A stretch of 63,174 bases of DNA, counting the filler, from Diploschistes diacapsis (Eukaryota), in the NCBI GenBank assembly GCA_023645945.1. It is 22 parts of 22 records of this genome, joined end to end, with 100 filler letters (N's around TTAATTAATTAA, not from the genome) between each part and the next. Parts side by side here need not be neighbours in the genome. Positions count along the whole stretch, not along the records: positions 13,256 to 36,798 come from JALAIB010000262.1; 21 more parts are not named here. One strand, 5' to 3'. Each line of letters begins with the position of its first letter. Position 1 is the stretch's first letter. This document shows positions 2,598 through 54,240 of the stretch, one piece after another. The notes under the pieces are model-generated. The model ran no database searches. It saw only the letters and a list, made by a program, of their open reading frames with translations, and was not told the origin of the DNA. A program made the position numbers and the translations under genes.

Positions 2598-2599
2598 TA

Positions 2600-2958: not shown

Positions 2959-2959
2959 T

Positions 2960-6020: not shown

Positions 6021-6057
6021 TTAAATTACGAAATAAGTTATCTATCTGGCGCTGGAC

Positions 6058-6512: not shown

Positions 6513-6519
6513 TTTCTTA

Positions 6520-6897
6520 AGATTAACGAATAATTAAAATTTTCGAAGTTTATTAAGAATAAATCGAAGATATTCCGTATGCTTCTCGGTATTATTCGAG
6601 AATATAAGAATATCGTTTAAATATATTATATAAATGATATTAATTAATTTTGTTAGTATACGGTGGATATATGTTTAGAAGATCGTTAGGGCGTTAATTA
6701 ACCCGAATGGTATTATTATGTATTTAAAATGACCGTATCGAGTGCGAAACGCTGTTTTCTATTTATCTCCTCGTTTGATCCGAATCCTGTAGTACGCGTT
6801 CTTCAGGTCCAGTTTTGAATAAATCTTGGTTCCATTCAGACGATCGAGCGTTTCGCTGATGAGGGTTAAAGGGTATCTATTCTTTTTTGTTATTTTG
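6520..6897 (-). mobile_element. Ty3/Gypsy reverse transcriptase remnant (second family)
   Basis: [64 protein letters not shown]...IYLNDILIFS. Confidence 0.9.
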
Positions 6898-7650: not shown

Positions 7651-7876
7651 GGGCTTATAACCTATTAAATAATGTAATAAATATATTAAAATTTAAAAGT
7701 TTAATCTATAAAGATATCCTACTACGCAGATTTTATATCCTACGAAATGTGCTAACCTTTACTATTTATTACTGCCGAATCGGTCTAGTCAGAATTTCAA
7801 GAGATTCTGTTGAACTGAACCTCCCTCTGGAACTCAGTCGAACTCCCAGCCATGCCTTCTGCCTGTCTGCTCAACA
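7651..7876 (-). mobile_element. Copia LTR family B 5' LTR plus primer-binding site (PBS)
   Basis: The LTR starts TGTTGAGCAGACAGGCAGAAGGCATGG and is followed by GGTTATAAGCCC, a RIP-ed form of the Copia-type PBS GGTTATGAGCCC. Confidence 0.75.
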
Positions 7877-8320
7877 GATCTTATAAAAAGTGTGTTAGAA
7901 TAATCCAGCCCCAGGCGGCACAATCAATCATTCGTTAATATTTATCTCAAAGTTTTTAAAATTGATTAATATTACTACCGCGAAAAATTAATCAACATCA
8001 TTATTTTTCAGGTTTCGGTGGTTTTGCTAATTTCGTTAACTCGTTAATTTCGCCCAGTTTACCGGTTTCGTCTTTGTTTCACTGCGTTTCATTGAAAAGT
8101 TCAAACGAAATGCGGTAAGTCGCTTGAACATATTATTTATTATTGGTTTCTTTAGTTTCTTTAGTTTCGCATACTATATAGCTTTTCGCGCGTTTTCGCC
8201 GCCAAAAACTTTTCATGATATAGACTAGTTTCAAACGTCCTAGAATATTCAAGTCCTAGTAATGACTAAATCAGACAGAATGCGCTATTTGGCTTAATAA
8301 TGTCACAATCATCGTTAATA

Positions 8321-8530
8321 ACGTGTTCCACCACGAAACGGAACACACCACCATGTAGAACATTATATTATAATATAATTATGCTAGATCGAGCGCTTCC
8401 ATATTTGTACGAAGCTAAATCTATTTTCAATTGCACTACCCCATTCTTCGGCCTTTAAGAAATACCTTTTACGAACGTGCAGGGATTGTGTTCCGCTTGA
8501 TGGTATGTTCCGTTTCGTGGTTAAACACGT
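8321..8530. mobile_element. 210-bp pogo-type MITE (family H) with TA target-site duplication
   Basis: About 30-bp TIRs ACGTGTTYMACCACGAAACGGAACAYACCA with TA on both sides. The left end recurs at 56045. Confidence 0.8.
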
Positions 8531-9472
8531 TAATATTGATTATTGATTCTTTAACTAACCAGGCTAGGCAGTTTAAAAATCATTTGTTATTTAAGCTTAT
8601 TTCAGCTAACGTGATGCCCCTAGTACCCGAACAGATCCTAATAACGGAACATCCATAAACGCTTTTTACACCCAAAATGGCGTCCTCTTTTTCCTCCATT
8701 GTAAGCTCCATATGTTTTTATTGTTTTTGTTAATTTAAATCTAAATACACTCGATGGTGGGGGATATTTTCATCGAAGCGATAACTCGATCCCTTTCGCT
8801 ATCATTTTATTAAATCGTTTGACGCAACGGCATCTTTTATTTTCTTCGACGTTAAACTTGATGGCCATTCTAGAAAATCTGTTAATTATTAAGTAAAAAA
8901 TATATCTTTACGAAATATATAAAGCGTTTATAAACCGAAGGAATTTTATTATTATCGTAATAATTAAAATTTCAACGGCGGAAATCTAAAATGCCGCCGA
9001 AACGGATAATTAACGTTAATTAAGCCGTTATTAGCCTAACGATTCTTGAAGGAGTATTTAGAGTTGAATACAGCCTAAAATAGTTTTCTTTTAAGTAATA
9101 GATCCGACGTCGCGGCGTCGGAGGTTTTGCGTCCGTTTCTAGAGCGCCTTTATAAGCTTTTCGATTCCGAAAGCGCTTTTAGATTAAGTTCACCGCAGGT
9201 TTAAAAGATTTTAATTATAAACGATTACGAGAATAAATATTCGCTATCGTTTTGAATTAAATACCGAATAAAAGAATTTTAAGGATATATTTATTAACGT
9301 ATATTTTTACGTCTTTTAATTTTTAAATAACGTGTTTCAAGGTCATCTGGGCCACTCCTCCATCTCTGTCTCNNNNNNNNNNNNNNNNNNNNNNNNNNNN
9401 NNNNNNNNNNNNNNNNTTAATTAATTAANNNNNNNNNNNNNNNNNNNNNNNNNNNNNNNNNNNNNNNNNNNN

Positions 9473-10798
9473 ACCCAATTCCGGAAGGTTTAGTCCTGGA
9501 AGTTCAGTTCAGTTAAACTTTTCTGAATCTGCTGGGATTTTGGCTAGATCGATTCAGGAATAATAAAAATAATAAAATTTAACGCGTATCGTAGAAAATA
9601 AAAGTTTATATAATAAAATTACTTTTTAGGATAAGATTTCTAGACTTTAATATATTTATTACGTTATTAAATAGATTATAAGCCCGGGTTTTATATTTAT
9701 TTTATTTAATTATTTCGTATGATTATATATTAGAAATAAATCTTTCTAATAATTAAAACGGTCACGAACGCGGGTACCGATTACGTTAATCTTAATAATC
9801 TAAATCGAAAAAATCCGAAACTTTAAGATCTAAATTATAAAACCCTAGGATAAATAAATTTAAAATAGAAAATATATTATTATAAAAGATCGCGGGATTT
9901 TATTACGTTAACTAAAAGTAAACCTAAATAAGAAGTATTTAGTTCCCGGATTCGTCTGTTAGATTAACGAAAAACGATTTCTTCTCTTTCTTTCCGATAA
10001 GGATCGAAGTTTAATTAAATCTAGTATTGAATCCTATCGATCACCTTGACAACCTTCGACACCTAGCAGAGCCGCTACCTTTTCTATTGAATCTAGTCGA
10101 TTCCTCGATAACCTTCGAAATCTAGTTAAACCGTTACCTTCGCTGCTGGATTTAGTCGAATTTCTCGTCAATCTTCGAAATCCAATAGAACCGTTACTTT
10201 CGCTGTTGGACCTAGTCGATACCCTCGATAATTATCGAGAATTTAATTAAACTTTTGTTGAATTCTTTCGATCTTTCGATAATTATCGATATCTAATCAT
10301 ATCGCCGCTGGATTATCTCGATATTTAATAATCGTCGATATTCAGTTTTATCGTTATTAAACCTTTTCGATATCTTTCGATAATTATCGAAGTTCGATTA
10401 AATTAAACTGAACTTATTCGATTAAAAAAAGAAAAATAAAATAGAGGATAAGTTATTTAATAAACCGGTTGCTTCGTACGAAACTATTAATCTATTAGAA
10501 CTGACCTAGATCAAAAGATCCGGTTAGATTAGACATTCTAGACGGTTCCGCCTGAAAGAGAGTATTGAGCGGACATACAGAAAACATAACAGGCTCGACC
10601 CAATTCCGGAAGGTTCAGTCCTGGAAGTTCAGTTCAGCTGAACTTCCCTGAACCTGCTGGGATTCTGACTAGACCGATTCGGGAGTAGCAAGAACAATAG
10701 GGCTTAGCGCGCACCGTGGAGGATAAAAGTCTGCACAGTAGGATTACTTCCTAGGACAAGACCTCTAGACTTCAATATATCCATTACGTTGCCAAACA
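9473..10798 (+). mobile_element. Non-autonomous Copia-LTR element (TRIM/LARD-like, family B): 5' LTR to 9673, PBS, about 890-bp interior, PPT, 3' LTR 10563-10798
   Basis: Two direct repeats sharing ACCCAATTCCGGAAGGTT...; PBS-like GATTATAAGCCC; polypurine tract (PPT) GAAAGAGAG; no gag/pol motif recognised inside. Confidence 0.75.
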
Positions 10799-10799
10799 A

Positions 10800-11097
10800 A
10801 ATCTACGCATAGAACCGCTTATAATAGCTCATTTAAATAAAATATATTTTGGTTGGTTAAAGCAGATTTTAAAAGATTCAAAAATCCGCTTTTTCGAGTT
10901 TTTATTTTTATTTCGCTTGAATAAAATAACTAATGACGTAATCAATGTGCATTTTTTATATATGATAGATAATTGATTAAAAAGTAATATTCTGAAAAAA
11001 AATAACGATTAATTTCGAAGAATTATTGAAGATTTAAACTATTTCTTGGCAAAAGTGGCCGGAATCTGGGGGTGGCCGGAATCCCCGTGAAACACGT
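10800..11097 (+). mobile_element. Right arm and TIR of the family F foldback-type element
   Basis: Similar to 2330-2597; ends CCCCGTGAAACACGT|TA. Confidence 0.65.
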
Positions 11098-11364
11098 TAA
11101 TTTAAAGGGTTTTATGGATGAAAACTTTTTAACCGATAGGTAAATAAGGTGAATAGTACGTCTAAGGTTTTTTAATTTTATTATCACGCATCGGCCCGAT
11201 AGAAATTTTTTACCGATATACTGTTACGGAGATCAGATTATTACGAAGCGAATTATTAAATAAANNNNNNNNNNNNNNNNNNNNNNNNNNNNNNNNNNNN
11301 NNNNNNNNTTAATTAATTAANNNNNNNNNNNNNNNNNNNNNNNNNNNNNNNNNNNNNNNNNNNN

Positions 11365-11766
11365 GGATTTAGTTAAACGAGACCGTATTAATATTATTTA
11401 TATATTTATAAACAAGATAATTGCCGACGGATTAATAAAATTATTAAATTACGTTAAACACGATATGTTCGTTAAAAAACTTAAATTAATATAAAGGACA
11501 TCCAACTAAATTAAATGAACATGCCGATAATTCCGTTCGTGAGAAAGTATTGAACAGGCAGGTAGAATATATGGCTAGGAAGTTTAACTAAACTTCAGGT
11601 TCAGGTTTAGTTTAGTTAAACCTATTAGGGTTCCTGTTAATCTTAATCGGGAATAATGCAAGTCTATAGGGCTTAATAAATCCTATTGGTATAAAAGCTT
11701 ACATGTAGACTATTCCTTCTAGTTAGATCTCTAGATATCTAGACTTCAATACATGCGTTGCCCAAA
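11365..11766 (+). mobile_element. Ty1/Copia RNase H C-terminus, PPT and family B-type 3' LTR
   Basis: DLVKRDRINIIYIFINKIIADGLIKLL is a RIP-ed MVADGLTK motif. Second copy at 53872-54240. Confidence 0.8.
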
Positions 11767-12735
11767 AGGGATTAATTTATATTCGTTACTTCCATTTTCA
11801 AAACCTTTTTTAGAGATAATCTCAGATCTGTAATTAATCTACTTCTTCTTCTTATCTATACTCCTCTTCTATACGAGACCAAGCCCACCTTGATCAATAC
11901 CTCGTGTCTACCTTGTAGAGATAGAGATCATAACAACCGATCGGGAGTAATACGGGTAATAAGGCTTAGCGAATCCCGTAGGATATAAAAGTCTGTATAA
12001 TAGAATATCTTCATAGCTTAGACCTCTAGACTTTAATATATCCATTACGTTGTCAAACACGATGTCTAGATTTTTCGATAAATAATCCGATATCTAGATT
12101 TTTCGATGAATAATCTTAAATATTATATAACGTAATAGATATATTAAAGTCTAGAAATCTTATTTAGAAGATTATTTTACGATATAGACTTTTATATTCC
12201 ACGAGATTCGTTAAATTTTATTATTTATATTATATCTGTTCGGTTTAGTCAGGATTCCACCGGATTCTATAAGATTCAGCTGAATTGAACTAAACTAAAC
12301 CTCGATAAGTTTACCTGAACTGAACTTCCCGGGTTCCTCCAGTGAACCTCCCAGAACAAGCCGAGCTCATAGCCATGCCTTCCGTCTGCCTGCTCAACAT
12401 TAAAGCTGGATTTCTGGCTAAATAATCCTAAGTGTGGATGTATGCTGAAAAAAGTTGAAAAATGTTTCAATATTTATTAAGGATCTCCATCGATCGTTCA
12501 AGTGAATAGGTCGAATTTTTTAATTAGGTTGCTTTCCTAATTAGGCCTAGTCGCGTAATTTTGCAAGGATATTTTGATCGCTGATTCGCCCATTTTCTGA
12601 ATCGGGTATAGTCGATTTTCTGTTTGGGCCTAGTCGCTTTATTTAATTGGATTTTATCCAATTAAATTTCAGGTAGTTGATCTCGCTGTAGAATTCTTCG
12701 TAATCCAGTTGCCTAATTAAATAGTCGCGTATTCC

Positions 12736-12870
12736 GGGCTCATAACCTGTTGAAAGTGGTGGAAGTTCCTAATATAAATGACAAATGACTAAGTGTATTC
12801 CGCAGCTAATCCTAACTAGGAAATATTCCTAGCCTACCTAACCTGCTGAGCTGACTATTATTCAGTAATA
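12736..12870 (-). mobile_element. Copia LTR family C end with intact PBS GGTTATGAGCCC
   Basis: Minus strand reads ...TTTCAACA-GGTTATGAGCCCGG. The same LTR sequence occurs at 56159-56280. Confidence 0.7.
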
Positions 12871-13817
12871 ATATATTGAAGTAGGTGAAAGTGATAACTA
12901 TGAAAGTTGAAGAATAAGAGGCCTTTTATAGGCACATTTCACGCTAGTATAATTAATAATAATTTAATCTAAAATATTTTATATATTAATAAGCCGAATA
13001 TTCTAGAATATTCTAGAATATTCAATAATATTCAATATAGGCTGGCCGTCACTGACACTGACACGGCCGTGTCAGTGACACGGATATTAATAGTGTTAGT
13101 ATCCGTATTTTAGATTTTTTAGCTGCGGTATCCGTGTCCGTGGATTCACGGAAGTNNNNNNNNNNNNNNNNNNNNNNNNNNNNNNNNNNNNNNNNNNNNT
13201 TAATTAATTAANNNNNNNNNNNNNNNNNNNNNNNNNNNNNNNNNNNNNNNNNNNNGGGGAGGGGAATGAATGAGGGGATCATGTGCAATATTCCTTCGGC
13301 CGGTTATTGCATGATGCAGAAAATGCTGGTTCCTCAGGTTACTGTACCGAAGCATTTCTAGAACTACTTGGGAGGGACCGACGAGGGCTCCTCCCCCTCC
13401 GGAAATTAGGTCGTATCAAAGAGCTGGGGTCTGTGGCTGCGATGATAGAAGGAACATCGATGCTCTCGGCTTCCTGCATAGTGAGTGACTCGTGGACGGA
13501 CTTTGCACCTTCTGTAGCGTGGAAGCGGAGGGCGTCCTGAGGGCATGGCGTGCCGCATTGCGAACATAGTGGTGCACTAAACAGCTAGGAGAGAGGCAAG
13601 TGGCGAAAAGGGAAGCAGTGATTGTCATAAGGAGAGACCATTGGGGCATGAAGCATGCATCAAGAACCATGTACACGACCCTGGGCACAACAAAAGACAG
13701 AAACCCACACCGCACCGCACCACAACAACTCACAAGCCTCCGCGATTTTGAAGGTGTCCCCCTCTCAACAAGCAGACAAAATCGCTTCCTCCATGCCGCA
13801 GTTTCCAAGGTCGCCAC

Positions 13818-15108
13818 TCATCCATCGTAATGCTTGCGAGCGAATCCAAGACGGGGCTGTTCGTTCAAGGCGTGCTCGTAAACAGTGAAGGTAGTCTTCA
13901 GGAAGGGAGCGCCGAGGCTGATTCGGTCGGTGTCGAGGTCGTCCTTGTGTCGTCCCTGTAGAAGTGCCATGCAGGCCACACCACCGCCTTTTCCTTCGAG
14001 AAGGATTCCTGGAATCTCGGCCGTGTAGTTGTGAACTTGTATTGTGACGTCCGGGAGTGTTTGACCGCATGGATAGTACCATTTCGCCCTTACTTCAGAG
14101 TAATAAGCGCCAGGTACTTTGTCAAAGTATGCGGTGGCCATCTTGTTGGGGAGAAACAGACAAGTCGACCCAGTGTCTACAACACCGTTGGCAACAATTG
14201 ACTCCATGTTCCCACCGGCAAACGACCAGCCTGTCACAGCAGTCTGCCATACATAACCGCTGCTGTCATTGACGGTCGGAAAGTAGGCCAGAGACGCGGT
14301 TGGAACGACTGAGGGCACGTAGCCGAAGGTGATGAAGCCTGGCACTTGGTGGTTGAAGTGCACCGTGAAGAGGGGAGATTCGAGGTGGGGTCGCACTCTA
14401 TCGAAGAACGCCCTCTTCAAGGGTGAAGTAGCGTCCCAGCGGGAGGCAAAGCCCAATCCCAGAATGCCGTCAGCAGGGTCCAAGGTAAAATCATTGTTCG
14501 CTACTTGCGCGTAACCGACAGGCTGAAGGGGGGCCACCAGCTCTCCAATGCCGACTTGATCCTGGTACATGCTGCCATAACATGCTGATCCGTCCACGTA
14601 GCTAATATTGAAGCTTTCGCCTTCCAAGTGGCGCGAGGTAGTCGACAGCAACGGGTCGTAAACATTGCCGTTGCGTCCGGGGGGGGAGGAAAGATTTGAG
14701 TGAACCCATCTGATTAGATTTAGCCTTCTGCCGTATAAAGGGAGTCAGCGAACAAAGACGACAGAGAACTTACAGATCATCAGATCCGGTATCCAAAAGA
14801 AGCTGAAGCATCTGTCCACCGACGCTCACCGGAGACAGGTATTCGCTCTCAGACTGAACAGGGACGGTTGTTACATTGGCGCGCTGATGTTCGACCCAGA
14901 GGCCGTGTCCACCGTGGTTGCGAGTTTGGAGCTGGGGAGCGCCAAACTCACCCACGGCGAGGTTCTCTCTGCCGAATGGTGGTTTGATAGGAGATGCCTT
15001 TGACTCAGCAAACGCCAAAGCGGCCAAGGTTAAGAATGCTGCAGCCATGATGACCATCACGATCCAGTTATTGAGACGTGACAAGATGGATTGGAATCGA
15101 GAGGCCAT
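13818..15108 (-). CDS. Secreted pepsin-like (A1) aspartic protease, aspergillopepsin/penicillopepsin type; exons 15108-14774 and 14709-13818 (about 408 aa; alternative starts 15057, 15048)
   Basis: Hydrophobic signal; two catalytic motifs DTGSDDLW and DTGSTCL; DGILGLGF; a 64-nt GTAAGT...CAG intron restores the frame. Confidence 0.9.
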
Positions 15109-16790: not shown

Positions 16791-19700
16791 TCAAGAAGAG
16801 TCCTTGAACCTCTTGCGTCCACGAGAAACCTCCTGAGCTTGTTCCGAAGTGACTGGAGTCTCGCCTTCCCTGGCAGTGCTTGCATTAGAATTGGCCTGTA
16901 GCCTCCCGTACATCTCAGCGGTGAGCCAATTAGGAATCTGATGAGTTTGTTTCTTGCGATTATAGTTTTGAAACAAGTGATTGACGGGCGCATCCATTTC
17001 GTGGTTGCGACGAAGCTCCTCCTCGTCCTTAGGGGACCACTTGGAGGCCTGCAAGCCCGCGGGCTTGATTGGCTTCTCCTTGAAGCCTGGAGGTGGAGCA
17101 CAGATCGGAACAGCGTGTGTACGAGGCTTAGTTTCCTCGGCCGGAGGGTTTGTCTCGCTCTGGATCTCGACTTGTTCCTTTCCTGCGCCCTCATCTGCAA
17201 TGGAAGGTTTGTTTGGCTCGGTATTGGTTGTTGAGGGATTCGGGATACCGACGACGGACGAAGGCTCTCCCATTTCCTCAAGCAGAATCTGAGAGTCTCG
17301 CTTCTCTTGTGGAATATCTGCCTGTACCCGTTGACTAGCCATTAGCTGAAATTCAGGTTCGCTTTTCTTGCGTTGTCCAACAGCTGGCTTTTCTGGCTCC
17401 TTGACCCTCATGGTCTCCTCTTTCTCATCTGGTGCCAGATGACGAAGGTGAGGCGGCAAGTCGTTCACTGGAAGACCGACTAAATGAGGCGGAATTCGAT
17501 CCTTCGCATCGATTGGCTTGTTCTGAACCTTGAACGGCGACTTTGGAGACATGGCTGGAGATGCAATCTTGCTTTGCTTTGCTGTTCCTTCAACTCCCCT
17601 TGGCTTAGCGAAAGGATTGATAAACGGCGAACTCTCTGCCCTATCTTTGAGTGAGCCCTCTTCAGAATCTTTGCGCTTTTCACTTTCGTACTTAGCTCTA
17701 ACCGCCTTTATTATATTGGCAACTGTGCAAGGCTCCCCCGGAAGGTCGTTCGGATGAATGGAAACTGTTCGAGAATTGGACTTGAAAGATGAAGAAAAAG
17801 AATCCAGCTTGTAGTTGAGTGAGACAAGCTCTTTGGGCCCATACCTCTTGGGTTGAGGAGGTTTCACAGTGAATTGAGCCGTTTCGGGCTCAGTGCTTGC
17901 GCTACTGGCTGTTCCTGTGTCATCGTTGATTGATTTAGCCTTCTTGACATACAGAATACGACCTCCAACATCTTGGGCATGCAAGCCTTTCTTGGCAGCT
18001 TTTGCTTGTCCTGCAGTCCTCATCGTGACATAGGCGGAGCCACGCGACTCGAGAGTGTCGCGAGTTTTCTCAAGCTCGCAATGCTCAACTCCACCGAATT
18101 GCGAAAACAAGCGGGCTACACCAAATTCTGTGAGCTCAGGATGAAGCCCAGAAACATAGAGGCGACTGCTAGCATTGGTGGTTGACGGGTTTTTTGGTTC
18201 CATCTCCGCTCGGCGAAGAAGAGAACCAAACTGAGCACCAGGTTTTTCCAAACGATCTTCTGCGAGGGCGGCTTGGGCACCCGCGTTCGACTGCAGAGGG
18301 CTCCACTCGAGCAAGTCTGGCTGCTCTTGAGCCATGGTTTCTGCCTTGCGATCGAGTGAAACATTATCGATAGCTCGACAAAGTGATTGTTGCGGTGTCC
18401 AAAGCGTATACTGGTTCGGTACGTTAGATGCAGCTTCGTGTTGTGCATTGGAGATATCTCGAAGACCAAGTCTAGGCGTTGTACCTAAAGCAGCTGCAAG
18501 TTCGCGCTTGAGCTCTCGGAGCTTGCTATACGCATGACGCTGGTGGCTTTGAGTTGCAGGCCCAGGGGTGTTGTTTGCGAGAAGAGAGAGGAAATATTCT
18601 TCGTGGGCGATATCTTCTTCGATCAAGGTGGGGCGACGGGTGGCGACCGAGCTTCGACTGTCTAAGAGGCTCGCCTCCGCCTCGATCGACATCATCGTTT
18701 CCCGGATGTTATCTGTTCCGTCAGATTCCGCATACTTTCTTGAAGAGGGTCGAATTCCTACCATTCATGATACTCTCAGCCCCTTGTACGATTTCCGGAA
18801 CGGCCGCTGCTGAAAGGGTCGCGACAGTTCCTTCTCCGGACACGGACACATCGGGACCTTTCCCAGAAACTTCATTCTTGACCATTGGAACGAATTCGGT
18901 TGCCTCAACAGTTCCTCGTTCGCCAGTGATTTCCGTCTCTTCGTTCATGCTACCCTGAACGTGCTCTTTCTTGACGTAGGCTGCTTCAGTTTTCTGTTGA
19001 GTTGTCTTTGGATTCACCATTGCCATAAAGGCGTCTGCCGATAGAAGGCTACCAGCTGAACTGACAGGCCCCCATGGTTGCGCCGATACTGTCCTACCCT
19101 TGACGTCGTGTGCATGTCTCTGACCTTCCGCCCGAGAAGTGCTCTCATTAGGAGGAGGTTTGCCAGCGTTTTTTTTGGCAGTTGGATTCCTCACAGGAGC
19201 CCGCGCAGGCGGCGCTGGATCCACTTTCCTTGAGACTGGCTCGTGCGGTGGAGCTGCACCCGTTAATCCTCGCATCCTTCGAGGCATTTCCAGCCTGCCC
19301 CGATCATCTATTTCAAGTCTTGCTCGGCTAGCACGCTTCCTGCCAACGGCTCCACCGCCGCGGCCACCTCCCCCAGCGCGACCGCCACGCACCGCCTGGC
19401 TATCGCGCCGTGCTGCTTCCCGTTCGGTGAAATTGTCACTGTTGACTCCGTGAATCCTTTGGTTCAGACCAGCACGGTGAGACTGTCCGGCGGTACCGTC
19501 ATCGTCGCTGACCTCCTCTTCTTTCATATCTACGTGTTATTAGCGAGTAAATCTTCCGTATGAGGTAAGAAAGTACGAACTTCCCCAGGCTGCAAGAGCA
19601 GCATCTTTCTCAGGGTTTACCCATCCGTCCTGCACTTGTAGCGAAGCTCGCATAGCAGACAACGAAGCTGCATCGATAGGTGGCGCAGGTCTACCAGTGT

Positions 19701-20986: not shown

Positions 20987-23270
20987 TTACGAGCACGTTT
21001 CACCCTTCGTCCCCTCCCTCAATCCCGCCATCTTCCCCACCGTCAACACCGTGCTGATTCCCATAACCGTCACCCCAAAGCACACAACTCCCCACGCCAA
21101 CACAGTCTTCCAGCTCCTTGTACTCAGCCGGATATAACATAAAGGCGGCAGGATATACGCTAAAGCACAGGCACTCGTGGCGCCTATCAGCTCAAATACG
21201 GCTCCGAGATCACAGGTTAGGAGGGAGAGGAGGGTGGCGGAAAGGACGAGGGCGGTTGTCATGATAAGGTGGCGGGGTGTGCTATGGGGGGAATGCGGGT
21301 AGAAGTAGGTGAGGAGGACCTCACGACAGACGAAGGTTTCGAGGGGAAGCGTGGTCAGCATGTTGAGGCCAAAGCAACTGCGGAGGGGTTAGCGGAGGCA
21401 AGGAGGGTATAACGGGGCGAAAGTGATCTCAGGGCTCATGCGGAAAAGAGGAAGAGGGAGAGAGGTGGAAGGAAAGTAGTGGGAAACAGTAAGAGAGCAA
21501 AAGTGTGGCGTTGGGCAGGGCGATATTGGGAGCCTGCTTACAGTCGTGCTATATTGACCATGACATTGTCTGCCGGAAAGTTGTTGAGCACATTCCCCAG
21601 CGTCTTATCGCCGAATGTGAGGAAGCCAGCGAGGGCCATTGCAAGACAGGCAAGCATCGAAATGCCAGTGCTGTAGTGCGTGACCCTTGCAAACCGGTCG
21701 ATGGTCGGCTTCTTCAAAGAGCCGTAGATGAGGAGGCTGTTGTGATCTACACATCCCATATTAGAAACGTTCTATGTGGTCCTTGAAGTCATCGGCTCTC
21801 ACGGCAAACGAAAGCTAGACCAAACGTTAGCGGGACCTCTCATGTGCCCAAGCAGGAGACGCTCACCAAATGAAATAACGCCAATGGCCTGGAAAATGCC
21901 GCCTTTTATGCCTAATGAGCCCACTATGGGCCCTTTCATTTCCGGATCTACCTTTGCGCCTTGAGTGATGACCGTTACTATTATTACAAGCATGCTGATC
22001 AACGCCAACGTAGATGCTTTCGCTAGCTGCGAGAAAGTCAGTATCCCCGACAGACGGCCAAAGCGATACGGAACTCCGATGAACTTACTTTTGCAATATC
22101 CCTATATAAAGAAAGTGGATAACTTATTCCCAAAATGAAAAGCACAATGATAAACCTCCTATCCGAAAAGACCCACAGCAGTGGCGTCTCCGGCAGCTTG
22201 GGCGCGATAGCCGTAAGTACATGCGGAATCGTATCTCCCACGATCACACAAAAAGCCACCATGCCTCCGAACGCAAACACCCACTGCGCGACAGAAATGG
22301 CAATCAGCCCCGGCTTCCCAAAGCAGTGCTCCATTGTCGCTTGGAACGTGTTTGCGCCGCTAAGCTTCGAGTTGATCACGATGAGCCGTATCGTCCAATC
22401 GACGGTGATGGTAAGCCCCACGAGCAGTACGATGCCTGCCATCAGCCCGGCCTGCCGGAATGCGTATGGCTGCCCGATGATGCCCGCACCGATGATGCTG
22501 TTGGCCATGTTCATGAAGGCGCTGCGCAGTCCGCTCTTTGGCCGTCGCGCCTCACGCTCCCAGTCGTACTCGCCATCGCCCTCCTGCCAGCCTTCTTCCG
22601 AACCTTCGTCCATGTCAAGAGCAGCCGTTACGCTACCGGCTTCCATACCCTCGAGTAGTCTCTCCCTTCCCTCGCTGAGTCTCCCTCCTGAGCTAGGGAC
22701 GTCGCTGGCGTCGCCGAGCGGGTCTCCATCGTCGAACCACGCCCGTACGGGCGGGCTTCTACTTGGTGAGGTAGCGCCGCCGTTTATGCCTAGCCCACCA
22801 TTTGGATGTAATCCCCCATTTATGCTCTTATGCGGATATGCTGGGTCTGAGACAGGAGACGGCGGCGTTGAGGCGATGGTGGGCGAGAGGTCAAAACGCA
22901 CTCTGTTTGCTGTCCGCGGCGTTTTCGGAGCATTGGGTGAGCGCGGACGAGTGAGGGAGGAGTGGCGATGCGGTGGATGTCCTGGGCGAGGCGATGACGA
23001 GGCGGAAGAGGGGTTGTGGCCGGGAGGTTGGGGAAGGACCTTACTCCCGGAGGAGGGCACGCTTGTGGTGGGTGAGGAATTGGCGGTTATTTTGATGTTT
23101 GGCGGTATTGAGGGAGGAGGGCGAAGTGTGCGGACAGAAGATTCTTGCGCAGTGAAGTTATTGCCGTGGTCGGGGCCACTGAGGTCATGGCCGCCCTCTG
23201 AGAGGAGGAACTCGGCTTCTTCTTGTGCGGCGCCATTGAAATTGGGACTTGGACTTGGAGAGGGTGTCAT
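20987..23270 (-). CDS. AVT2: Aa_trans-family (AVT2/SLC38A11-like) vacuolar amino-acid transporter; exons 23270-22089, 22026-21867, 21814-21803, 21746-21542, 21377-20987 (649 aa)
   Basis: AFMNMANSIIGAGIIGQPYA, RDIAKLAKAS, ISFAFVCHHNS, NMLTTLPLE; many transmembrane segments; all introns canonical and frame-consistent. Confidence 0.88.
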
Positions 23271-23776: not shown

Positions 23777-25483
23777 TCATTTATGGAACATCATCATGAA
23801 AGAAGTGATGAATGTCAGGATATATAAAACAAGGGTGTCTGATTGCATTGCAGATGCTCCGGACTGTACACTAGTGCTGGCCGATGGCGAGGCCGCTACA
23901 GAGCCAGATGCTGATTGGCTTGACGGCGACGGCTGGACGCCGGTCGCTTGCGACGAAGCCGTGGCCGCCGGAGCAGTGCTACCGGACGATGATGCGGATG
24001 AAGTGCTAGCGGTAGATGAGGTAGAGCTACCGCCGGAAGAAGGGCCTTTCGCACCGAAGCCTGTTGATCCGTCAGTGACCAAATATCCTTGAGGTTTCCG
24101 TACACTCCTTACCGACGCGATTCTTGTCCACATCGAAAACAGTGTAGACGTTCTTCATGAAGGTGTCTCCAAGAAGCCATGTCTTATTGTCCACTGCAGC
24201 TTGACTGAAAATGTTGCTCTGACATTGCCCACCAGCAGTCGAAGGACCTACGTAGTCCTTGGGTGAGATGCTATATGCCACGTTATTGAAGACGAGAGCA
24301 ACTTCAATGCTAGTATTGCAGGGCAAGGTCGATACATCATTGTCCGAAAACGCAGCACCCGGTATCAGCTGGAACAAGGCTTCCGCATCGGCTGGTGGCA
24401 GGAACATGTAGCTCGTGCCACTATCGATAATTGCGCTCCGACTATTGAGCAAAGAGGACTTGCCGTTGACTGAGAATCCATCTACGGGGATTTGCCATAA
24501 CCCACCGCTCTCGATGTTGTCCATATAGTTCAAGTTGCCACTGAACTTTGCTGCATCATTGGATTAGGCGATTACGTGACTACGGCAGATAGTTCTTACT
24601 TGTGTCGATGCCCCCAAAGTTGATCTCTCCATCGTTCGTGTCGTCTGCGGCTCGCTCCAGGTTCATGCCAAAGATGTTTGACTTTAGGACTTTATTCTGT
24701 TGCAGCATCTGTATAAAGGTTGGCTGGAAAAATCCTGCGCTGGGCTTTTGACCTAACCCAAGGATGCCGTCCATTGGGTAATCGTCGAACGCATCCGAGG
24801 TTCTGTTCGCGAGACCGAATTGCATCTTAACATTTATTCCGCCTAGGCTGACGGTGTCCGTGACAACTGGCCCTGAAACATCTCCTGTGCTGTACGAAAT
24901 ATTGAAAATGCTAGAACCTTCAACTAGAGTCCTCGAATTTGCTGGACCGAAGGTGCTATGAGACTTGCAGGCCGTTGTAGTACATCCTTGCGCCATGACC
25001 CAAACAGCTGACGAACCAGTATCCATCAAGAGATAGACGGTCTCTCCGGGGCCCGTGCCGAGCTGGACTTCGCAGAAATAGCTCGTGTCGCTGTCATCTT
25101 CGTCGACGGCGGCACTTTGTGGAAGGGTCGGGTTTTTCGAATCATCGACCTGAAACCCATTGAGGCGCTTTCGCAACGCATGTTCCTCCCTTTGAGCCTC
25201 GCGAGCCGAGAATTTGAATGACGGGCGTGCATGCAAGCCGGCCCACCAACCATTAGTCCTAAGCCAAATCATCTTCTTGATAGACACAGCTTACAGGAAC
25301 GGTACGCTTGTGGAGTCTGGCTCGAGCAAGTCCATCCTCGGAACCTTGCGCAATCTTCGTGCTATGTTGCACGCTCTTGTCAGGCACGGTTCGTTTGTAG
25401 CTTGGTGGGGTGTACGGGTAGAATGCAGCTGATAGATGAGAGAAGAGAGTCAGAAAAACTAGGACCGCGATGTGGGAACGCAT
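23777..25483 (-). CDS. ctsD: CtsD-like aspartic endopeptidase with Ser/Thr-rich stalk and hydrophobic C-terminus (probable GPI or membrane anchor); introns 24551-24599, 24061-24112 and one starting at 25294 with an unclear acceptor
   Basis: Signal peptide; MDTGSSAVWV and IIDSGTSY motifs; WLLGDTFMKNVYTVFD; S/T/A-rich tail ending LVLYILTFITSFMMMFHK. Confidence 0.85.
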
Positions 25484-29139: not shown

Positions 29140-30949
29140 TCACACGTTGTAGATTGCCTGAGGCGGCACCGTCCCCATCAGCACATCCGTCGGATTGCTC
29201 GGCCTGAACTTCTTCTCCTTGTATGCCAACTCCGCGCCCTCGGCGCCCTTCTCCACCTCGCTGAAGTCAAAGTGCTTCTTCGACAGCCCCTCGTACACCC
29301 CTTTCGCGTATTCGGGCGCGATGTTGTAGATCTGGCTCAAGTACTTCTGCTGGATCTGGGGCCTGCTTACCAAGTTGAGCAGCCGGGACGTATTGTGGTG
29401 CGTGTGCTGCCGCGCGGTGTCGTCCATGACGCGGCGGTAGAGCTCCGTCGCCTGCGCGTACTCAGACTTCTTACCCTCGTGCCCGAAATGCGATTTGCGC
29501 GATACGGTGTTGTCAGCGAGCGCGTACGGCGTCTCGGCCGTGTCCGGGCGGAACTTGTACACTATCGAGTTGGGGTTGTAGTCCGGGTTGCCGCTGTGGT
29601 TTCCGTCATTGCGCATCGGCCCGTCGAAGTTGACTGAGGAGAACGACTGGGCCATGAAAGGGCAGTTGACTGGCTGCTGGTGCAGGTTGATGCCGATGCG
29701 GTGGTACTGAGCGTCGCGGTAGAAGAACATGCGGAACTGCAGCAGGGGATCTGGCGAATCTTCGATGCCCGGTACCATGCTGCCCGGCGAGAAAGCGGCG
29801 AGCTCAACGTCTCGGTGGAAGTTCTCCGGATTTTTCGTCAGGGTTAGCTTGCCGAAGTCTTGCATAGGGAACTCGCTCCGTGGCCAGATCTTTGTTACGT
29901 CAAAGGGATCGAAGCCCAACTTGTTGAAATCGGCCTGCTGGGGCTCCATGACTTGCACTTTGCAGGTCCAACTCGGGCGCTCTCCGTTCTCGATGGCCTG
30001 CCAGAGATCTCGCTTCGAGAAATCCGGATCCTCTCCGGACAGCCTCGTAGCTTCTTCGGCCGTGAATTGCTTTTGGCCACCATCGGCGATGAAATGGTAC
30101 TTGATGTACACAAACTTGCCTTCCTTGTTGACCCACTTGAAAGTGTGGCAGCCGTAGCCATGGAAGCCACGCCAGCCCTGAGGTGTACCGTGATCGCTAA
30201 AGAACATCAGACCCGCATGATTGGCTTCGGGAGTGTTGGCCTGCTATCTTTTAGTATGTGTCCGCAAAAAGGTGATGCAACGCGCTTACCAGTAGGTCAA
30301 ATGTCGCATCATAGTCCAGCAGGAAGTTATCAGGCCGCCTAGCCTGACTCCTGATGACGTCGGGCCCCTGGATGGGATCTCTGCAGAAGAAGACAGGGAA
30401 GTTCAGCCCTACAATGTCCAAGTTGCCCTCTCCGGTATAGAACTTAATAGCAAAGCCTCTGGGGTTCCTAGCCAGGTCCGGAAACTCCCTCCCGAGCGTG
30501 ACAGTCGAGAAGCGGATGAACACAGGCGTCTTCAGGCCCACAGACTGGAGAAAGCTGGCCTTGGTCAAGGAAGAAACATCGTGAGTAACTTCGAAGTGTC
30601 CAAAGGCGCCTGATCCGCAGGGGTGCACCATCCGCTCGAGGTTCTTGCTACGATTGAAGTGCTGCTGCTTTTGCAACAAGAACGTATCGCTAACTAGGGG
30701 AAGGCCCCCTGCGGTCTTGGAGTGAGCAGCATCGGGAAACGGGATGCCCTCGTTGTTGGTGAAGTAAGGACCATCGTCAGACCGCTTGACGTTGTCCAAG
30801 AGCCCGGTGATACGGGCAGCATGAACAGCAGGGCCATCGTTGGCGCCTTGGAAAAAAGAACTTCTCTGCATTGGGCGTGGGTCGACGCCCATGTTGCCAG
30901 CAGCCTCAGTCATCTTTTGGATAGGATGTGTAATGGCTTCAGCGGCCAT
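29140..30949 (-). CDS. Monofunctional heme catalase, small-subunit fungal type; exons 30949-30290 and 30240-29140 (586 aa)
   Basis: Distal ERMVH, RFSTV, RGFAIKFYT, DIVGLN, proximal RMFFYRDAQ; 49-nt canonical intron. Confidence 0.93.
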
Positions 30950-31485
30950 GGGAGAGGCAATGGAAGGAAGAGAGGTCCCGCGTTGCAGAAAGCACGTAAG
31001 AGGGCTCTCTGATTTTTGAATTACCTTGACGGGGGTAGAGGAAGATGGAAAGGAGATGGAGGAAGCAGAAGTTATCATTAGATGGGCAATATGAGGGGAC
31101 CCGGAACGCAACTGGAGCCTGAGAGGGGTTCATGGTGAGTTCAAGAACCGTCTCCGTCATAGTCGTTATAATCGTCATAGTGATGCGTATAGAATTTTGT
31201 CTCTTGTTGTTGATATACGCCTGGTGGGAAACGGCTCACAATTATTTTTGCATTTATTAAAAAGTAGCTTACTAGTTCTAGCAATGATTTCATTGGATCC
31301 GAAAGCACTTCCACTGGCATGCCCTGATTGGTAGCGGATGTAGCCCCGTCAAGCTTAAAGGCTTCACCTGGAGCTTCTCCTATAGGCCCTATAGGCATTA
31401 CTAGCTCAGCGCTATTAAACTACATGTTGAATGCTATAAATATCTGACAAAGCTGTAGAGGGTATCTAGGTATTGTATAAGCACA

Positions 31486-33822: not shown

Positions 33823-35061
33823 CTACCACCAGAAAAAATCGTCACGAAGCTCGTGCTTCTTCCCCTTTTTTATCTTGCTCTTGCTCTTGCTCTCGTCTTC
33901 GTCCTCATCCTTGTTATCATCCTCGTCGTCCTTGTCCTTCTCATCCTCATCGTCCTTATCCTTATCCTTCTCGTCCTCATCCTTTTCGTCCTCATCCTTC
34001 TCGTCCTCATCCTTCTCATACTTATCCTTCTCGTCCATGCCATCTTTGTCCTTCTCGTCCTCGTCATCGTCATCTTCGTCGTCATCGTCATCCTCGTCGT
34101 GGTTCTTCGCCTTCTTATCTCCCTTCTTGCTTCCTTTCTTGTTTGACTTGTTTTCATCCTCGTCTTCGTCATCTAAATCGTCTTCATCGGCCCCACAGTT
34201 AGGTCCAACCTTCACAGTTGAGGTACTGGATCCACTGGTCCGTATTATCGTCGTGCATCCTGGACAATCGATCTGCGTTGAGCCATCTGGAGTGACGTGC
34301 TTAGTGCAACCCTTGCCGTTGCTATCCAGCTTGGTACCTGCTGACTTGACAGGCTTCTTAATCTTAAGGACTTTCTTGGACTTCCTAGCTTTCGAGCCTT
34401 TCGAGGAATAATTCTTTGATTTATGCAACTTCGAGGCCTTGGAGTGCTTCTTAAATGAGAGAGCTGGACCTTTCGTGTCTTCAGCCAAGCTTCCCTCGCA
34501 ATTAGAACCCTGCTGGGTCTTTACGTTTCCATACTTGTCGAGAATCTTTTGGCAGCCTGGGCACTGGATGATAGTAGCTCCATCGGACGAATGCACTGTA
34601 TTGCACGAATCATGACCGCCAGTATCATGGTCCAGAGAATAGCCACCGTGCAAGTCGCTGCTGATCCAGGAATTGACGGATTTGATAGGCTTCATCAAGG
34701 GCTTCATATCCTTCCATGGCTGGCTTAACTTCCCCTGGCCGTGGGAGGAGTGTCCCCATGGCTCGGCAGAGTAGTCGTCGCAAGTAGCGCCCTGCTCCCG
34801 AACTACTTCTCCTCCACGAATCCGCCGCTGGCAGCCTGGCAGCTGAACGTTTGCAGAATCAGCATATCCTTCGGCGGGGATCTCATAATCTTGACACAGG
34901 CCTTGTAGATTTGCTATTTGATCGTCCTCATCAAGAGTGACCTGGCAGCCTGGGCATTGGTATAGTGTCCGTCCAGCTTGGTGGTTGACTTGGCAACTGT
35001 GCAAGTTCCGCGCTGCGCAGGTCGCTGCCAGCAGCGCAAGGGGCAGAAAGTAATCGCGCAT
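33823..35061 (-). CDS. Secreted Cys-rich protein with four (C/L)PGC repeats, a Lys-rich linker and an Asp/Glu/Lys tail (412 aa); no family recognised
   Basis: Signal-like N-terminus MRDYFLPLALLAATCAA; long intronless ORF; internal repeat C-x12/13-CPGC-x16/19-C. Confidence 0.8.
   Translation of the reverse strand: MRDYFLPLALLAATCAARNLHSCQVNHQAGRTLYQCPGCQVTLDEDDQIANLQGLCQDYEIPAEGYADSANVQLPGCQRRIRGGEVVREQGATCDDYSAEPWGHSSHGQGKLSQPWKDMKPLMKPIKSVNSWISSDLHGGYSLDHDTGGHDSCNTVHSSDGATIIQCPGCQKILDKYGNVKTQQGSNCEGSLAEDTKGPALSFKKHSKASKLHKSKNYSSKGSKARKSKKVLKIKKPVKSAGTKLDSNGKGCTKHVTPDGSTQIDCPGCTTIIRTSGSSTSTVKVGPNCGADEDDLDDEDEDENKSNKKGSKKGDKKAKNHDEDDDDDEDDDDEDEKDKDGMDEKDKYEKDEDEKDEDEKDEDEKDKDKDDEDEKDKDDEDDNKDEDEDESKSKSKIKKGKKHELRDDFFWW
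33870..34190 (-). repeat. Low-complexity coding repeat (DEKDE units, 15-nt period in part)
   Basis: Reiterated CTCGTCCTCATCCTT-type units on the plus strand. Confidence 0.85.
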
Positions 35062-35746
35062 TGTATCGTAGCCAGATAATTTTTCTTCAGCACAAATCGC
35101 AAAGTTGAAATAAAAGCTCTCATATATATTCAATGAGAAAAACCGGAATACAATTGGGTATGCAATTGAAGAAGATATTGCTAAACATAAAAGAAGAGGC
35201 CGCGTTAACTTTACCTGCAACGAGGCTGCGCAGACCAACGCCGCAAGCTCAGGTCCTTGTAATACCAACTTCTCACGGTTGAATACTTTGCCTAAAGTAT
35301 CCCCCAGGCACTGCCCAACCCCAGGTAATGGATATCAAACGTTGCGTAGTGGCAAGTTGCAACAGAAGGATCTGGGGTAGTAGTCGAGACCTCTAATCCT
35401 GAGAACCTCCAACCTTTCGAGCTTCTGCGTGGGCATGAAGTGGTTGGAAGGGGTACAAGGTGTGCATCGCTAGCTAAGGGGTAGTATACCGTTGTTCTAA
35501 CCGAATTAAAGGCTATTACGTAATGGAATTACCGGAGTTTGATCCTTCCGACCTTTTTAATGGTTAAATATATATTTATTTCGGTCACCAATAACTGCTC
35601 TGTATAGAACGGGTATAGTAGAAGCTCTCCTCACCAGCGATATAGTATCCGTAGCTGCAGTCCAACTTTTGTCCCCATACCAATCACCTATCGTAATGCT
35701 CGGCCGCTGCAGGAGGTGTCCCGCTTCGCTTTTCTAATCTGCTAAG

Positions 35747-36798
35747 ATGTCAGTAATCCTCTGTACTGGTAAGTAGTTTGAAGCTTGAGCAGCAGAGTCT
35801 TGCTTACTATAAGATGTAGCGGGCTACGATCTTACCATTCGTTTTTGGGAGGCATTATCAGGGATATGCTCCCGTACAATCCAGCACTCTGAGTCGCAGG
35901 TGAACCGGCTGTGCATCTCGCCCGACAAGCGCCTACTAGCTGCCGCTGGCAGTGAAGAAGTCAAGCTCTACGACATCCGTTCCACCAACCCTGATCCATT
36001 CCTCACTTTCAAAGGCCACCATGGCAACGTCACAGGCGTCGCGTTCCATTGCGAGGGGAAATGGATGGTAACGAGCTCGGAGGACGGGACCGTCAAGATC
36101 TGGGATACTCGCACAGCAACTGTGCAGAGAAACTACTCGCATGGCTGCCCCGTCAACGACGTGGTCATACATCCCAACCAGGGCGAGCTGATCAGTTGCG
36201 ACCGCGGCGGTAACGTACGGATTTGGGATCTCGGCGAGAACAAGTGCACGCACCAGCTCATCCCCGAGGATGACGTCTCCGTCTCCAGCGTCACCGTTGC
36301 CACGGACGGCACGCTCCTCTGCGCTGGGAACAACAACGTAGGAAATCATACCCCCCCCCTTTCTTCGCCGTTTCCTTCCTTCCCTAACTAACCTCCTTCC
36401 CTTTAGGGCAACGTCTACGTTTGGCGCATGCTCCAAAACCACGACCTCACCTCCCTCATCCCCGTCACCTCCTTTCAAGCCCACGCCACCTACATCACCC
36501 GCGTGCTCCTCTCCCCAGACGTGCGCCACCTCGCGACCTGTTCCGCCGACCACAACGCCCGCATCTGGGCCGTCACCGAACCCTCCCAGCTCCCCACAGA
36601 AGCCACCTTCTCCAGTCAACCCCACCCAACTACCACCGCAAACGGGGCGCCAACAGCCCACCCATCCGCCCTCCAACCCGCACACACGAACCCCCAAGAC
36701 GCCCATTCCCTCTCCCGCACCGCCACCCACCAAACAACCCTAGCCATCCACTCCACAACAGCGGCAACAACAACCAAAACCAAACCCATCATCTCTAC
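35747..36798 (+). CDS. LST8: TOR complex WD40 subunit LST8, 3'-truncated at the contig end; exons 35747-35768, 35820-36337, 36407-(36798)
   Basis: [57 protein letters not shown]; canonical introns. Confidence 0.95.
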
Positions 36799-51989: not shown

Positions 51990-53771
51990 CAGGCCCTCCT
52001 CGCATCAACCCAAGCCACCACCCCCCCCAAATCCTCCAGCACCGCCAGCGTCTTACCCATCTTATCCCACATCTCCTTCGCCGACAAATTCGTCCCGAAC
52101 ACACTTTTCCCTTTTTCTTCTCCATCGCCACCACCACCACCATCGGCCCCGCCACCGCCGCCAGCAGCCTGCGCGTCGATAATGGAGAAGGAGACGGAAG
52201 AAGAAGGATACGGAACATCATGTTCGATGTCCACGCCAGCGTTCGGCTGCACGCGGAACGTGGCCAGGCAGCTTGCGGGAGCCGTTCCCGGTGCGCGCGT
52301 AGGCGAGGCGGATACAGCCGAAGATGAAGTCAAAGCTGAAGTTAAATCTAAAGTTGAAGTCCTGGGAGAAGGAGAGAAAGAGGAAGAGGAAGAGGAGGAG
52401 GGAAAAGAGATAGAAAGCGCCAGATCGATGCGGCGCGGGAGCGGGGCGTAGGCGAAAGAGACGTCGATGCTGACGGGTGTGGCGAGGATAGAATGAGAAT
52501 GGTGGGTTGTAGGTTCGGCGGAAGATGATAGGGGTGGCTTTGGGGGTTCGATGGCCCGGCGAGCGGGTGCGGGCTTGTTGGGCTCGTTGTCGGAGTCGGA
52601 GCTGTCTGTGTCGGAAGGGGGATCGTAGGGCTGGTAGTGGTGGATGCGGAAGTTGAGGTTTGGCTTTTTTGGCTGAGGGGGACGTGTGCGGTTGGGTATA
52701 GGGCGGTTAGAGGTGGGATGTGTATCTGTAGCTGTCGTTGTAGTTGCAGTGGCGTGTCGACCGGTCTCCGGCCGCAGAGACTGCTCGCCGTCGACGCCGA
52801 AACTGCGCTGTAGCATCTTCCCGAAGAACGCCCACTGCCGCAGGTAGGGCAGAATGTCGACGAGCTGTTTTGGGTGCGAGAAGGGTATTTCGTGGATCGT
52901 GCGTGCCCAGGAATCGGGCTGCGAGAAGAAGTTGAAGCGCAGGCGATGCGAAGTAGGCTTGCCGCTGGCGTCGAACGAGCGGGCCACTCTGTCGAAATGG
53001 AGTTCGGCGTCCTTCGACGAGTCCTTGGCAGAGCTGGATTCTTGGACTGCGGCCGGAAACAGCAGCGCGGCGAAAGTGGTTGGTTGAATGGATTCGTGCG
53101 GAATGGGCTGCCCGACGTGGTTGAAGATCTCGATGGCTGCGGAGAGGGAGAGAGTCACGGGAGGGTCGAGCCGGGCGACAAAACGAATATTGGGTAGTGT
53201 GCCTCTCGTGATGCCAAGGTCCAGACTACCGCCCGTGCCGGCCGATGTCTCGGTGTTGGGGATGAATGTGGGTGGAGGATCTTGCCAGAGGGGAAGGATA
53301 TCGTCTTTCAGCGACTCTGCAGCTGTATCGGCGAGCCAAGCGTTTGAGATGCGGATGGAAGGATACTGGGTTGCGTTCAACTCCTCGCAATCTATGAGCA
53401 GATTGTAGGGTCTTTCAAGAGACCCTGTTGTGGGCACAGTAGATGCGCTGCTCTCCGTAGACAAAGAGCTTTTCGCCGGGTCCTTCGCGGCAACAATCCT
53501 CCTGTCAACCCAATAATCCAGCCTCAGCCCAATCTTATCCTCCGCATGCATTGCAGGCCTCCCGCTCCTCTCACACATCACCAAAACCTCGGCCTCCCTT
53601 TGTGTGGCCGTTCCCCCCTTCTCCTCCCTCTCCTTCTTCACCTCTATCTCCCACAACCTCCTCAGCGCCCCACTCACCCCCTCCAACGCACTAAAGCAAC
53701 TAACACTCCCCTTCCCTAACGTGTCGATCCTCGCCAGCCTTGCCAAATTCCCCACAAACCTCTCCAAACCC
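51990..53771 (-). CDS. MED1: Mediator subunit 1 (fungal Med1), partial at both contig ends
   Basis: Open frame across the whole contig; FVGNLARLARID..SCFSALEG..LRRLWE, CERSGRPAMH..IGLRLDYW, IPFSHPKQL..LRQWA, LEDLGGVVAWV. Confidence 0.85.
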
Positions 53772-53871
53772 NNNNNNNNNNNNNNNNNNNNNNNNNNNNN
53801 NNNNNNNNNNNNNNNTTAATTAATTAANNNNNNNNNNNNNNNNNNNNNNNNNNNNNNNNNNNNNNNNNNNN

Positions 53872-54240
53872 AGTTAAACGAGGCCGTATTAATATTATTT
53901 ATATATTTATAGATAAGATGGTTATCGACGAATTAACGAAACTACTAAATTACGTCAAACACGATATGTTCGTTAAAACTTAAATTAATATAAAAGACAT
54001 CTAGCTAAATTAAATAAACATGTCGATGGTTCCGTTCGTAAGGGAGTGTTAAGTAAATAAATAGAATGTATGGCTGGGAAGTTTAGCTGAACCTACTAGG
54101 GTTCCTGCTAATCCTAATCGGGAGTAGTGCAAGTCTATAGGGCTTAGTGGATCCCATTGGTATAAGAGCTTGTATGCAGACTATTCTTTCTAGTTAGATC
54201 GCTAGATATCTAGACTTCAATACATGCGTTGTCCAAAAGA
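53872..54240 (+). mobile_element. Copia RNase H end, PPT and family B-type LTR
   Basis: VKRGRINIIYIFIDKMVIDELTKLL; PPT GTAAGGGAG|TGTT. Confidence 0.75.

What the first reader, a model, noticed from the sequence alone, without database searches (positions are those of the whole stretch)
33823..35061. Secreted protein built from an unrecognised four-copy CPGC cysteine module, with polybasic and polyacidic blocks
Seen: a signal peptide, then four ~35-40-aa units: SCQVNHQAGRTLYQCPGCQVTLDEDDQIANLQGLC; ..NVQLPGCQRRIRGGEVVREQGATC; SCNTVHSSDGATIIQCPGCQKILDKYGNVKTQQGSNC; GCTKHVTPDGSTQIDCPGCTTIIRTSGSSTSTVKVGPNC. A His/Gly spacer, a Lys-rich spacer and a ~110-aa D/E/K tail ending DDFFWW complete it. Unit 2 has lost Cys1 and Cys2 together (LPGC). 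Inference: the pairing is C1-C2 and C3-C4 disulfides stapling beta-hairpins, not a redox CxxC or a Zn site. I recognise no family. It sits between two housekeeping genes (MES1, LST8), so it may be lineage-specific: an effector, a matrix/adhesion protein, or a cation-binding protein.
Basis: partly seen in the sequence, partly recalled or inferred. Interest (0 to 1): 0.72.

Follow-up and report, generated by a model that had tools for sequence, protein, structure and literature searches.

The report
New cysteine-stapled module in lichen fungi
A lichen-forming fungus carries a real gene for an apparently secreted protein built from small repeated cysteine-stapled beta-sheet modules and a highly charged tail; it belongs to an unnamed family so far found only in one order of mostly lichen fungi and most likely works as a binding or matrix protein outside the cell.

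The parts
33823..35061 (-). Whole gene, one open frame, 412 aa (P0001)
   Evidence: homologues collinear over the first 209-279 residues
35011..35061 (-). Signal-peptide-like N-terminus, residues 1-17 (cleavage after Ala17 inferred by eye)
   Evidence: hydropathy; 15 of 17 family proteins have such a stretch
34894..34998 (-). Module 1, type A (C23, C36, C39, C56), four predicted strands
34780..34893 (-). Module 2, type B (C77, C94 only; conserved Y59, Y66, A67, Q73, P75, G84, G91)
34750..35007 (-). A+B domain, residues 19-104, eight-stranded model, pLDDT 94.9, pTM 0.82
   Evidence: fold searches
34609..34749 (-). Ser/Gly/His-containing linker, not conserved, low confidence in the model
34498..34608 (-). 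Module 3, type A (C153, C167, C170, C188)
34312..34497 (-). Lys-rich linker (19 K/R in 62 aa); basic also in P0006 and P0008
34195..34311 (-). Module 4, type A (C252, C266, C269, C289)
33826..34194 (-). Acidic/basic low-complexity tail, 123 aa, 54% D/E, 24% K/R, partly from 15-bp and 60-bp DNA repeats
33826..33855 (-). C-terminal motif [HYL]-[DER]-[LV]-R followed by a short peptide ending in an aromatic residue; present in P0001, P0006, P0007, P0008, P0010

Best explanation
A secreted, non-enzymatic, multivalent binding protein of the hyphal wall or thallus matrix in Ostropales fungi. Steps: (1) it enters the secretory pathway (inferred from hydropathy, conserved in the family); (2) each A module folds as a four-stranded antiparallel meander stapled by C1-C2 and C3-C4 disulfides, and modules 1+2 pack into one eight-stranded domain (fold predicted with high confidence, pairing inferred); (3) the A+B domain and two free A modules, on flexible linkers, bind a repetitive extracellular ligand, most likely a wall or matrix polysaccharide, through conserved Tyr59/Tyr66/Asp68/Gln73 (inferred by analogy only); (4) the acidic tail binds Ca2+ and water and, with the Lys-rich blocks, cross-links or condenses the protein in the matrix (inferred from composition). 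I put steps 1-2 at about 0.85 and the whole chain at about 0.4.
For: Family of 17 proteins with 2-5 modules on variable linkers; 15 of 17 have a hydrophobic N-terminus, and of the two without, P0010 starts inside module 1. A+B model pLDDT 94.9, pTM 0.82 from 11 sequences. Cys census, 53 rows after removing 5 duplicates of 58: 38 with all four, 12 lacking C1 and C2 together, 3 irregular; P0006 module 4 keeps only C1+C2. DSSP limits (24-28, 31-36, 39-43) put C23 opposite C36 at a non-hydrogen-bonded position, where cross-strand disulfides are favoured (recalled rule), and C36/C39 at a hydrogen-bonded turn position. Y59 in 10 of 10 rows, Y66, A67, Q73 in 9 of 10, D68 in 8 of 10. P0022 has a Ser/Thr-rich stalk (34 of 50 residues). 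Tandem small domains on fungal or oomycete secreted proteins bind wall glycans in Ecp6 and CBEL (PMC4617103, passages). Acidic tail kept in all four full-length look-alikes, 35-47% D/E.
Against: No ligand evidence at all. The conserved Tyr residues may be structural; I could not read surface exposure from the model. Apart from the five full-length forms and P0015, the members measured have no long acidic tail, so step 4 is not general. No GPI-like C-terminus in 17 of 17. Two independent losses of C1+C2 are not shown: trees did not reject one origin for B modules plus module 3 of P0007/P0010 (AU p 0.65; joined at 72/78 with the Cys columns removed), although by identity P0007 module 3 is nearest to P0001 module 3 (50%, against 28% mean to B). 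Five of 17 proteins have an odd Cys count after residue 18. No version of this protein came back from the protein collections, so I have no annotation record for it, and expression is untested.
Confidence: 0.4

Rival explanations
1. Effector or antimicrobial protein: the disulfide-stabilised modules act on the photobiont or on thallus microbes, perhaps after release from the linkers by proteases.
For: Lineage-restricted, Cys-rich, secreted-type; several homologues are 138-185 aa with two or three modules; P0016 and P0022 have KR sites between module blocks; the gene sits where upstream synteny is broken. Lichen fungi carry many unassigned secreted proteins and predicted antimicrobials (10.1101/2024.08.16.608140 passages; 10.64898/2026.09.03.749242 abstract and section 7).
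Against: P0001 has no KR site and its only RR lies inside a strand of the folded domain; no second copy found in its genome in 4 searches, which are lower bounds; full architecture conserved in four homologues at 35-46% identity; a 123-aa acidic tail is not needed for this role.
Confidence: 0.25
2. Crystal or ion modulator: the acidic tail controls calcium oxalate or gypsum crystal growth or buffers Ca2+, and the modules only anchor it to the wall.
For: Tail 54% D/E with a 15-residue D/E run, conserved as a composition in four homologues. The species named on neighbouring-gene records grows on gypsum biocrusts (PMC7441164, abstract start only); lichens bind cations extracellularly and form oxalates (PMC8912583, abstract start only). 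Acidic secreted proteins modulate minerals in animals (recalled).
Against: The tail also holds 24% K/R, net charge of full-length homologues ranges from -28 to +13, most members lack the tail, and the substrates of the unnamed homologues are unknown.
Confidence: 0.15
3. Metal-thiolate protein: each A module binds Zn, Cu or Cd through its four Cys.
For: Sub-threshold Pfam zinc-ribbon hits on the CPGC word; a source label 'uncharacterized C2H2 Zn-finger protein' on P0015; all four Cys fall at one end of the meander (inferred).
Against: C3 and C4 stay in all 12 modules that lack C1 and C2; C2-C3 spacing is x3 in three modules; only one CxxC per module; signal peptide implies an oxidising route.
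Confidence: 0.08
4. Secretory-pathway resident, a calreticulin-like Ca2+ buffer or chaperone partner, with the conserved C-terminal motif as a sorting signal.
For: Signal peptide plus acidic C-terminal tail; a conserved H-[DE]-L-R-like word near the end of five proteins.
Against: None of 17 proteins ends in HDEL/KDEL; restricted distribution and variable module number do not fit housekeeping.
Confidence: 0.07
5. Redox-active CxxC protein using C2-C3.
For: CPGC is a CxxC word.
Against: C2 is absent while C3 stays in 12 of 53 modules; spacing varies; the motif sits on a strand-turn-strand, with no helix after it.
Confidence: 0.03

Closest known systems
Fungal secreted repeat-containing proteins, e.g. 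Venturia inaequalis Cin1 (PMC4617103, passages read)
   Same: Secreted, lineage-restricted, several imperfect small repeats with flexible linkers, function not established.
   Different: Cin1 repeats are 52-64-aa three-helix bundles in tandem; these modules are about 37-aa all-beta meanders on long linkers, of two types, with a charged tail.
Multi-module glycan binders Ecp6 (LysM x3) and CBEL (CBM1 + PAN/Apple x2) (PMC4617103, passages read)
   Same: Several small extracellular modules in one chain; the model for the proposed mechanism.
   Different: No Pfam match to LysM, CBM1 or PAN; LysM is beta-alpha-alpha-beta, the model here has only a three-residue helix; glycan binding not shown.
Beta-propeller blades (WD40, BamB/PQQ, NHL)
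Kex2-processed repeat precursors (KEPs; Rep1, Hum3)
   Same: Signal peptide and repeats; some homologues have KR sites.
   Different: P0001 has no KR and no dibasic site between modules; modules are folded domains rather than short peptides.
Acidic secreted biomineralisation proteins and the calreticulin C-domain (recalled, no call)
   Same: Long D/E-rich low-complexity tail on a secretory protein.
   Different: Strong Lys content, no HDEL/KDEL end, unrelated folded domains, no mineral or Ca2+ data.

Membership tests
Any described Pfam family | Score at or above the gathering cut-off | tested here: not met
   P0001 best 16.3 bits against cut-off 27; 0 of 14 homologues reach a cut-off; P0021 and P0022 have no precomputed domain
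Fungal secreted repeat-containing protein (broad kind) | Signal peptide | tested here: met
   Hydropathy only; 15 of 17 family proteins; SignalP not available
Fungal secreted repeat-containing protein (broad kind) | Two or more copies of a repeat unit | tested here: met
Fungal effector | Expressed in the partner interaction and acts on the partner | not testable with these tools
   No expression or activity data could be obtained
Cin1 family | Three-helix-bundle repeat | tested here: not met
   Eight strands and one three-residue helix at pLDDT 94.9
C4 zinc ribbon / zinc finger | Two CxxC knuckles giving four conserved ligands per unit | tested here: not met
   One CxxC per unit; C1+C2 absent in 12 of 53 units while C3+C4 stay
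C4 zinc ribbon / zinc finger | Bound zinc | not testable with these tools
   Needs ICP-MS or a structure
Thioredoxin-type redox CxxC | Conserved CxxC at the start of a helix in a thioredoxin fold | tested here: not met
   CPGC lies between two strands; first Cys of the motif is dispensable
KEP (Kex2-processed repeat protein) | Repeats separated by KR/RR sites | tested here: not met
   Only dibasic KR/RR site is R79-R80, inside module 2. The C-terminal H-E-L-R fits neither KR/RR nor LxxR as given in PMC8528282 (passages)
Beta-propeller (blade-repeat) proteins | Four-stranded antiparallel unit | tested here: met
Beta-propeller (blade-repeat) proteins | Units closed into a propeller | tested here: inconclusive
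   Matches cover one blade only; assembly state unknown
Any solved fold (PDB) | Whole-domain structural match | tested here: inconclusive
GPI-anchored wall proteins | Hydrophobic C-terminal GPI signal | tested here: not met
   Best 10-residue hydropathy in the last 30 aa is -1.06
Carbohydrate-binding modules | Demonstrated glycan binding | not testable with these tools
   Needs a glycan array; only conserved Tyr/Asp/Gln seen
Acidic biomineralisation proteins | Secreted D/E-rich region | tested here: met
   54% D/E over 123 aa
Acidic biomineralisation proteins | Binds Ca2+ and alters crystal growth | not testable with these tools
   Bench assay needed

The most novel reading that the evidence does not exclude
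The A+B domain is a new small disulfide-stabilised beta fold invented in Ostropales, and this protein is a purpose-built thallus-matrix component: a glycan-recognising head tied to a block-charged tail that condenses with Ca2+, plus a conserved C-terminal aromatic peptide that is clipped off or self-associates. It would be a first molecular handle on how crustose lichens glue hyphae, algae and mineral together.
Probability: 0.2. Interest if true: 0.75.

Novelty: new variant of a known kind. Interest (0 to 1): 0.47.

Why it matters
The proteins that build the lichen extracellular matrix and partner interface are poorly known, and many lichen secreted proteins have no assignable function (10.1101/2024.08.16.608140, passages). 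This finding defines an unnamed module with a confident model, a small 86-residue domain that can be expressed, and clear predictions (disulfide pairing, candidate binding residues, Ca2+ binding by the tail). It adds a candidate new fold and a marker family for Ostropales. It is one of many orphan secreted families, so its weight depends on a function being shown.

Full report
Observation. Window 33823-35061(-) is a single open frame of 412 codons; the other five frames hold 9-37 stops. It has a hydrophobic N-terminus, 14 Cys after it in four groups (23/36/39/56; 77/94; 153/167/170/188; 252/266/269/289), a Ser/Gly/His linker, a Lys-rich linker and a 123-aa tail with 67 D/E and 29 K/R. The repeats are not chance: 0 of 100,000 shuffles gave four PGC motifs, and all six unit pairs beat shuffles at p 0.0002-0.018. 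The gene has gene-like GC (0.51) and no RIP signature, inside a gene-rich island of about 24 kb between AT-rich flanks. The left neighbour is methionyl-tRNA synthetase and the right one a WD40 protein; I recall the latter as LST8.

Host and family. Clusters of three neighbouring gene products each hold a protein named as Diploschistes diacapsis on a 23,543-bp contig, the length of the contig that carries the window. Two word-indexed searches found no homologue, but phmmer over 1.84 billion representatives gave 14 proteins at E 0.001 or better, the best at 1e-41, and a profile search added two more. Four (P0006, P0007, P0008, P0010) share the whole layout including the acidic tail. The others are secreted-type proteins of 138-481 aa with two to five modules. 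Only two carry names: Stictis urceolata and Gomphillus americanus. With the host, all three are Ostropales. The other 14 are unnamed, so the restriction rests on few labels. No Pfam family reaches its cut-off in P0001 or 14 homologues. P0001 itself is not in the collection as an exact sequence. Four searches of its own genome found no second copy (lower bounds).

The module. An iterated HMM over 18 proteins gave 58 rows. I removed five duplicates (three partial overlaps of complete units, two units of P0023, which is P0013 with a longer start). Of the 53 left, 38 have all four Cys, 12 lack C1 and C2 together, and 3 are irregular (one in P0012, two from a three-hairpin unit in P0015). Ten of the 12 are type B: each follows an A module directly, has its own N-terminal sequence (Tyr, then mostly Tyr-Ala-Asp, then Gln-x-Pro-Gly/Asp-Cys), and they form one clade (97/96). 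The other two are module 3 of P0007 and P0010. By position and identity (50% to P0001 module 3, 28% mean to B) they look like a second loss, but trees did not reject a single origin (AU p 0.65; joined at 72/78), so independence is not shown. The Fisher p-values ignore relatedness and are not used. P0006 module 4 shows the reciprocal state, C1+C2 only. Three modules have C-x3-C instead of C-x2-C. Cys counts after residue 18 are even in 12 of 17 proteins.

Tail and tip. The acidic tail is kept as a composition in the four full-length homologues (35-47% D/E), after basic blocks in some and before a short basic stretch in all. All five end in [HYL]-[DER]-[LV]-R plus a 4-6-residue peptide ending in Trp or Tyr. 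It is not HDEL and not a GPI signal, and in P0001 it fits neither KR/RR nor LxxR as described for Kex2 (PMC8528282, passages). It is unexplained.

Context. Of 80 MES1 loci from metagenomes, many short or distant, none held the WD40 neighbour or a module match in the DNA fetched, up to 7 kb each side (the HMM found all four modules in the window as control). Nine loci with 72-77% MES1 identity keep the downstream amino-acid transporter, four of them also an aspartic protease. Upstream they hold other genes (14 loci inspected). So the gene lies at a synteny break relative to these fungi. I could not fetch DNA around the homologues, so synteny within Ostropales is untested.

Mechanism. Shown by sequence: a conserved, secreted-type, modular family. 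Predicted: the fold. Inferred: disulfide pairing (about 0.85 with secretion), and a role as multivalent wall or matrix binder with an ion-binding tail (about 0.4). The inference rests on the beads-on-a-string layout, conserved Y59/Y66/D68/Q73, a Ser/Thr stalk in P0022 and analogy to Ecp6 and CBEL (PMC4617103, passages). Rivals: effector or antimicrobial 0.25, crystal modulator 0.15, metal-thiolate 0.08, secretory-pathway resident 0.07, redox 0.03. Expression could not be examined.

Novelty. Nine literature searches listed no description of this family, and four look-ups in the scan's notes found none. Papers seen: 10.1101/2024.08.16.608140 (passages), 10.64898/2026.09.03.749242 (abstract, outline, section 7), PMC4617103 and PMC8528282 (passages), PMC7441164 and PMC8912583 (listing and abstract start); no supplements. 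Lichen fungi have many orphan secreted proteins, so the kind is familiar. The module, its A/B pairing, the unmatched fold and the charged tail with a conserved tip appear new. I rate it a new variant of a known kind, interest 0.47.

Noticed in passing
window 29140-31078 (-): A two-exon catalase gene (Pfam Catalase; 586 aa in the named record) lies between MES1 and the protease/transporter block; no catalase match in any of the 80 MES1 loci, including nine that keep the transporter. It may be a lineage-specific insertion.
   Followed up: partly
window 35740-36798 (+): WD40 gene (recalled as LST8) with short introns, cut by the contig end and N runs at about 36800; its last read part is low-complexity.
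   Followed up: partly
window 1-13000 and 37000-63174: AT-rich flanks (GC about 0.30) with RIP-like dinucleotide indices (TpA/ApT 1.03-1.11; substrate index 0.65-0.70) around the gene island; a GC-rich patch at 52001-54000 was not examined.
   Followed up: partly
window 13818-14570 (-) and 24072-25272 (-): Two ORF sets that read like pepsin-type aspartic proteases (by eye, DTG/DSG motifs) in the same gene island, with an RRM-like protein at 16791-18764 and an amino-acid-transporter-like gene near 21000-23270.
   Followed up: no
proteins P0014 and P0015: Three-hairpin variants of the module, in which a hairpin appears duplicated between the CPGC words; suggests the module itself arose from a duplicated hairpin.
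   Followed up: no
protein P0019: A divergent member that by eye repeats the A+B pair twice, each followed by a Q-A-R-D word that could be a processing site.
   Followed up: no
proteins P0016 and P0022: A+B domain, Ser/Thr stalk, an Ala/Asn/Thr-rich repeat, then two KR sites before three further A modules: possibly a precursor cut into two module-bearing proteins.
   Followed up: no
L007, L008, L009, L004, L017, L018, L050, L057, L075 upstream of MES1: A small divergently oriented gene with a shared acidic N-terminal motif (recalled as LTO1/YAE1-like) lies upstream of MES1 in these loci, while L005, L010, L012 and L035 have a coiled-coil gene and a septin-like gene there.
   Followed up: no
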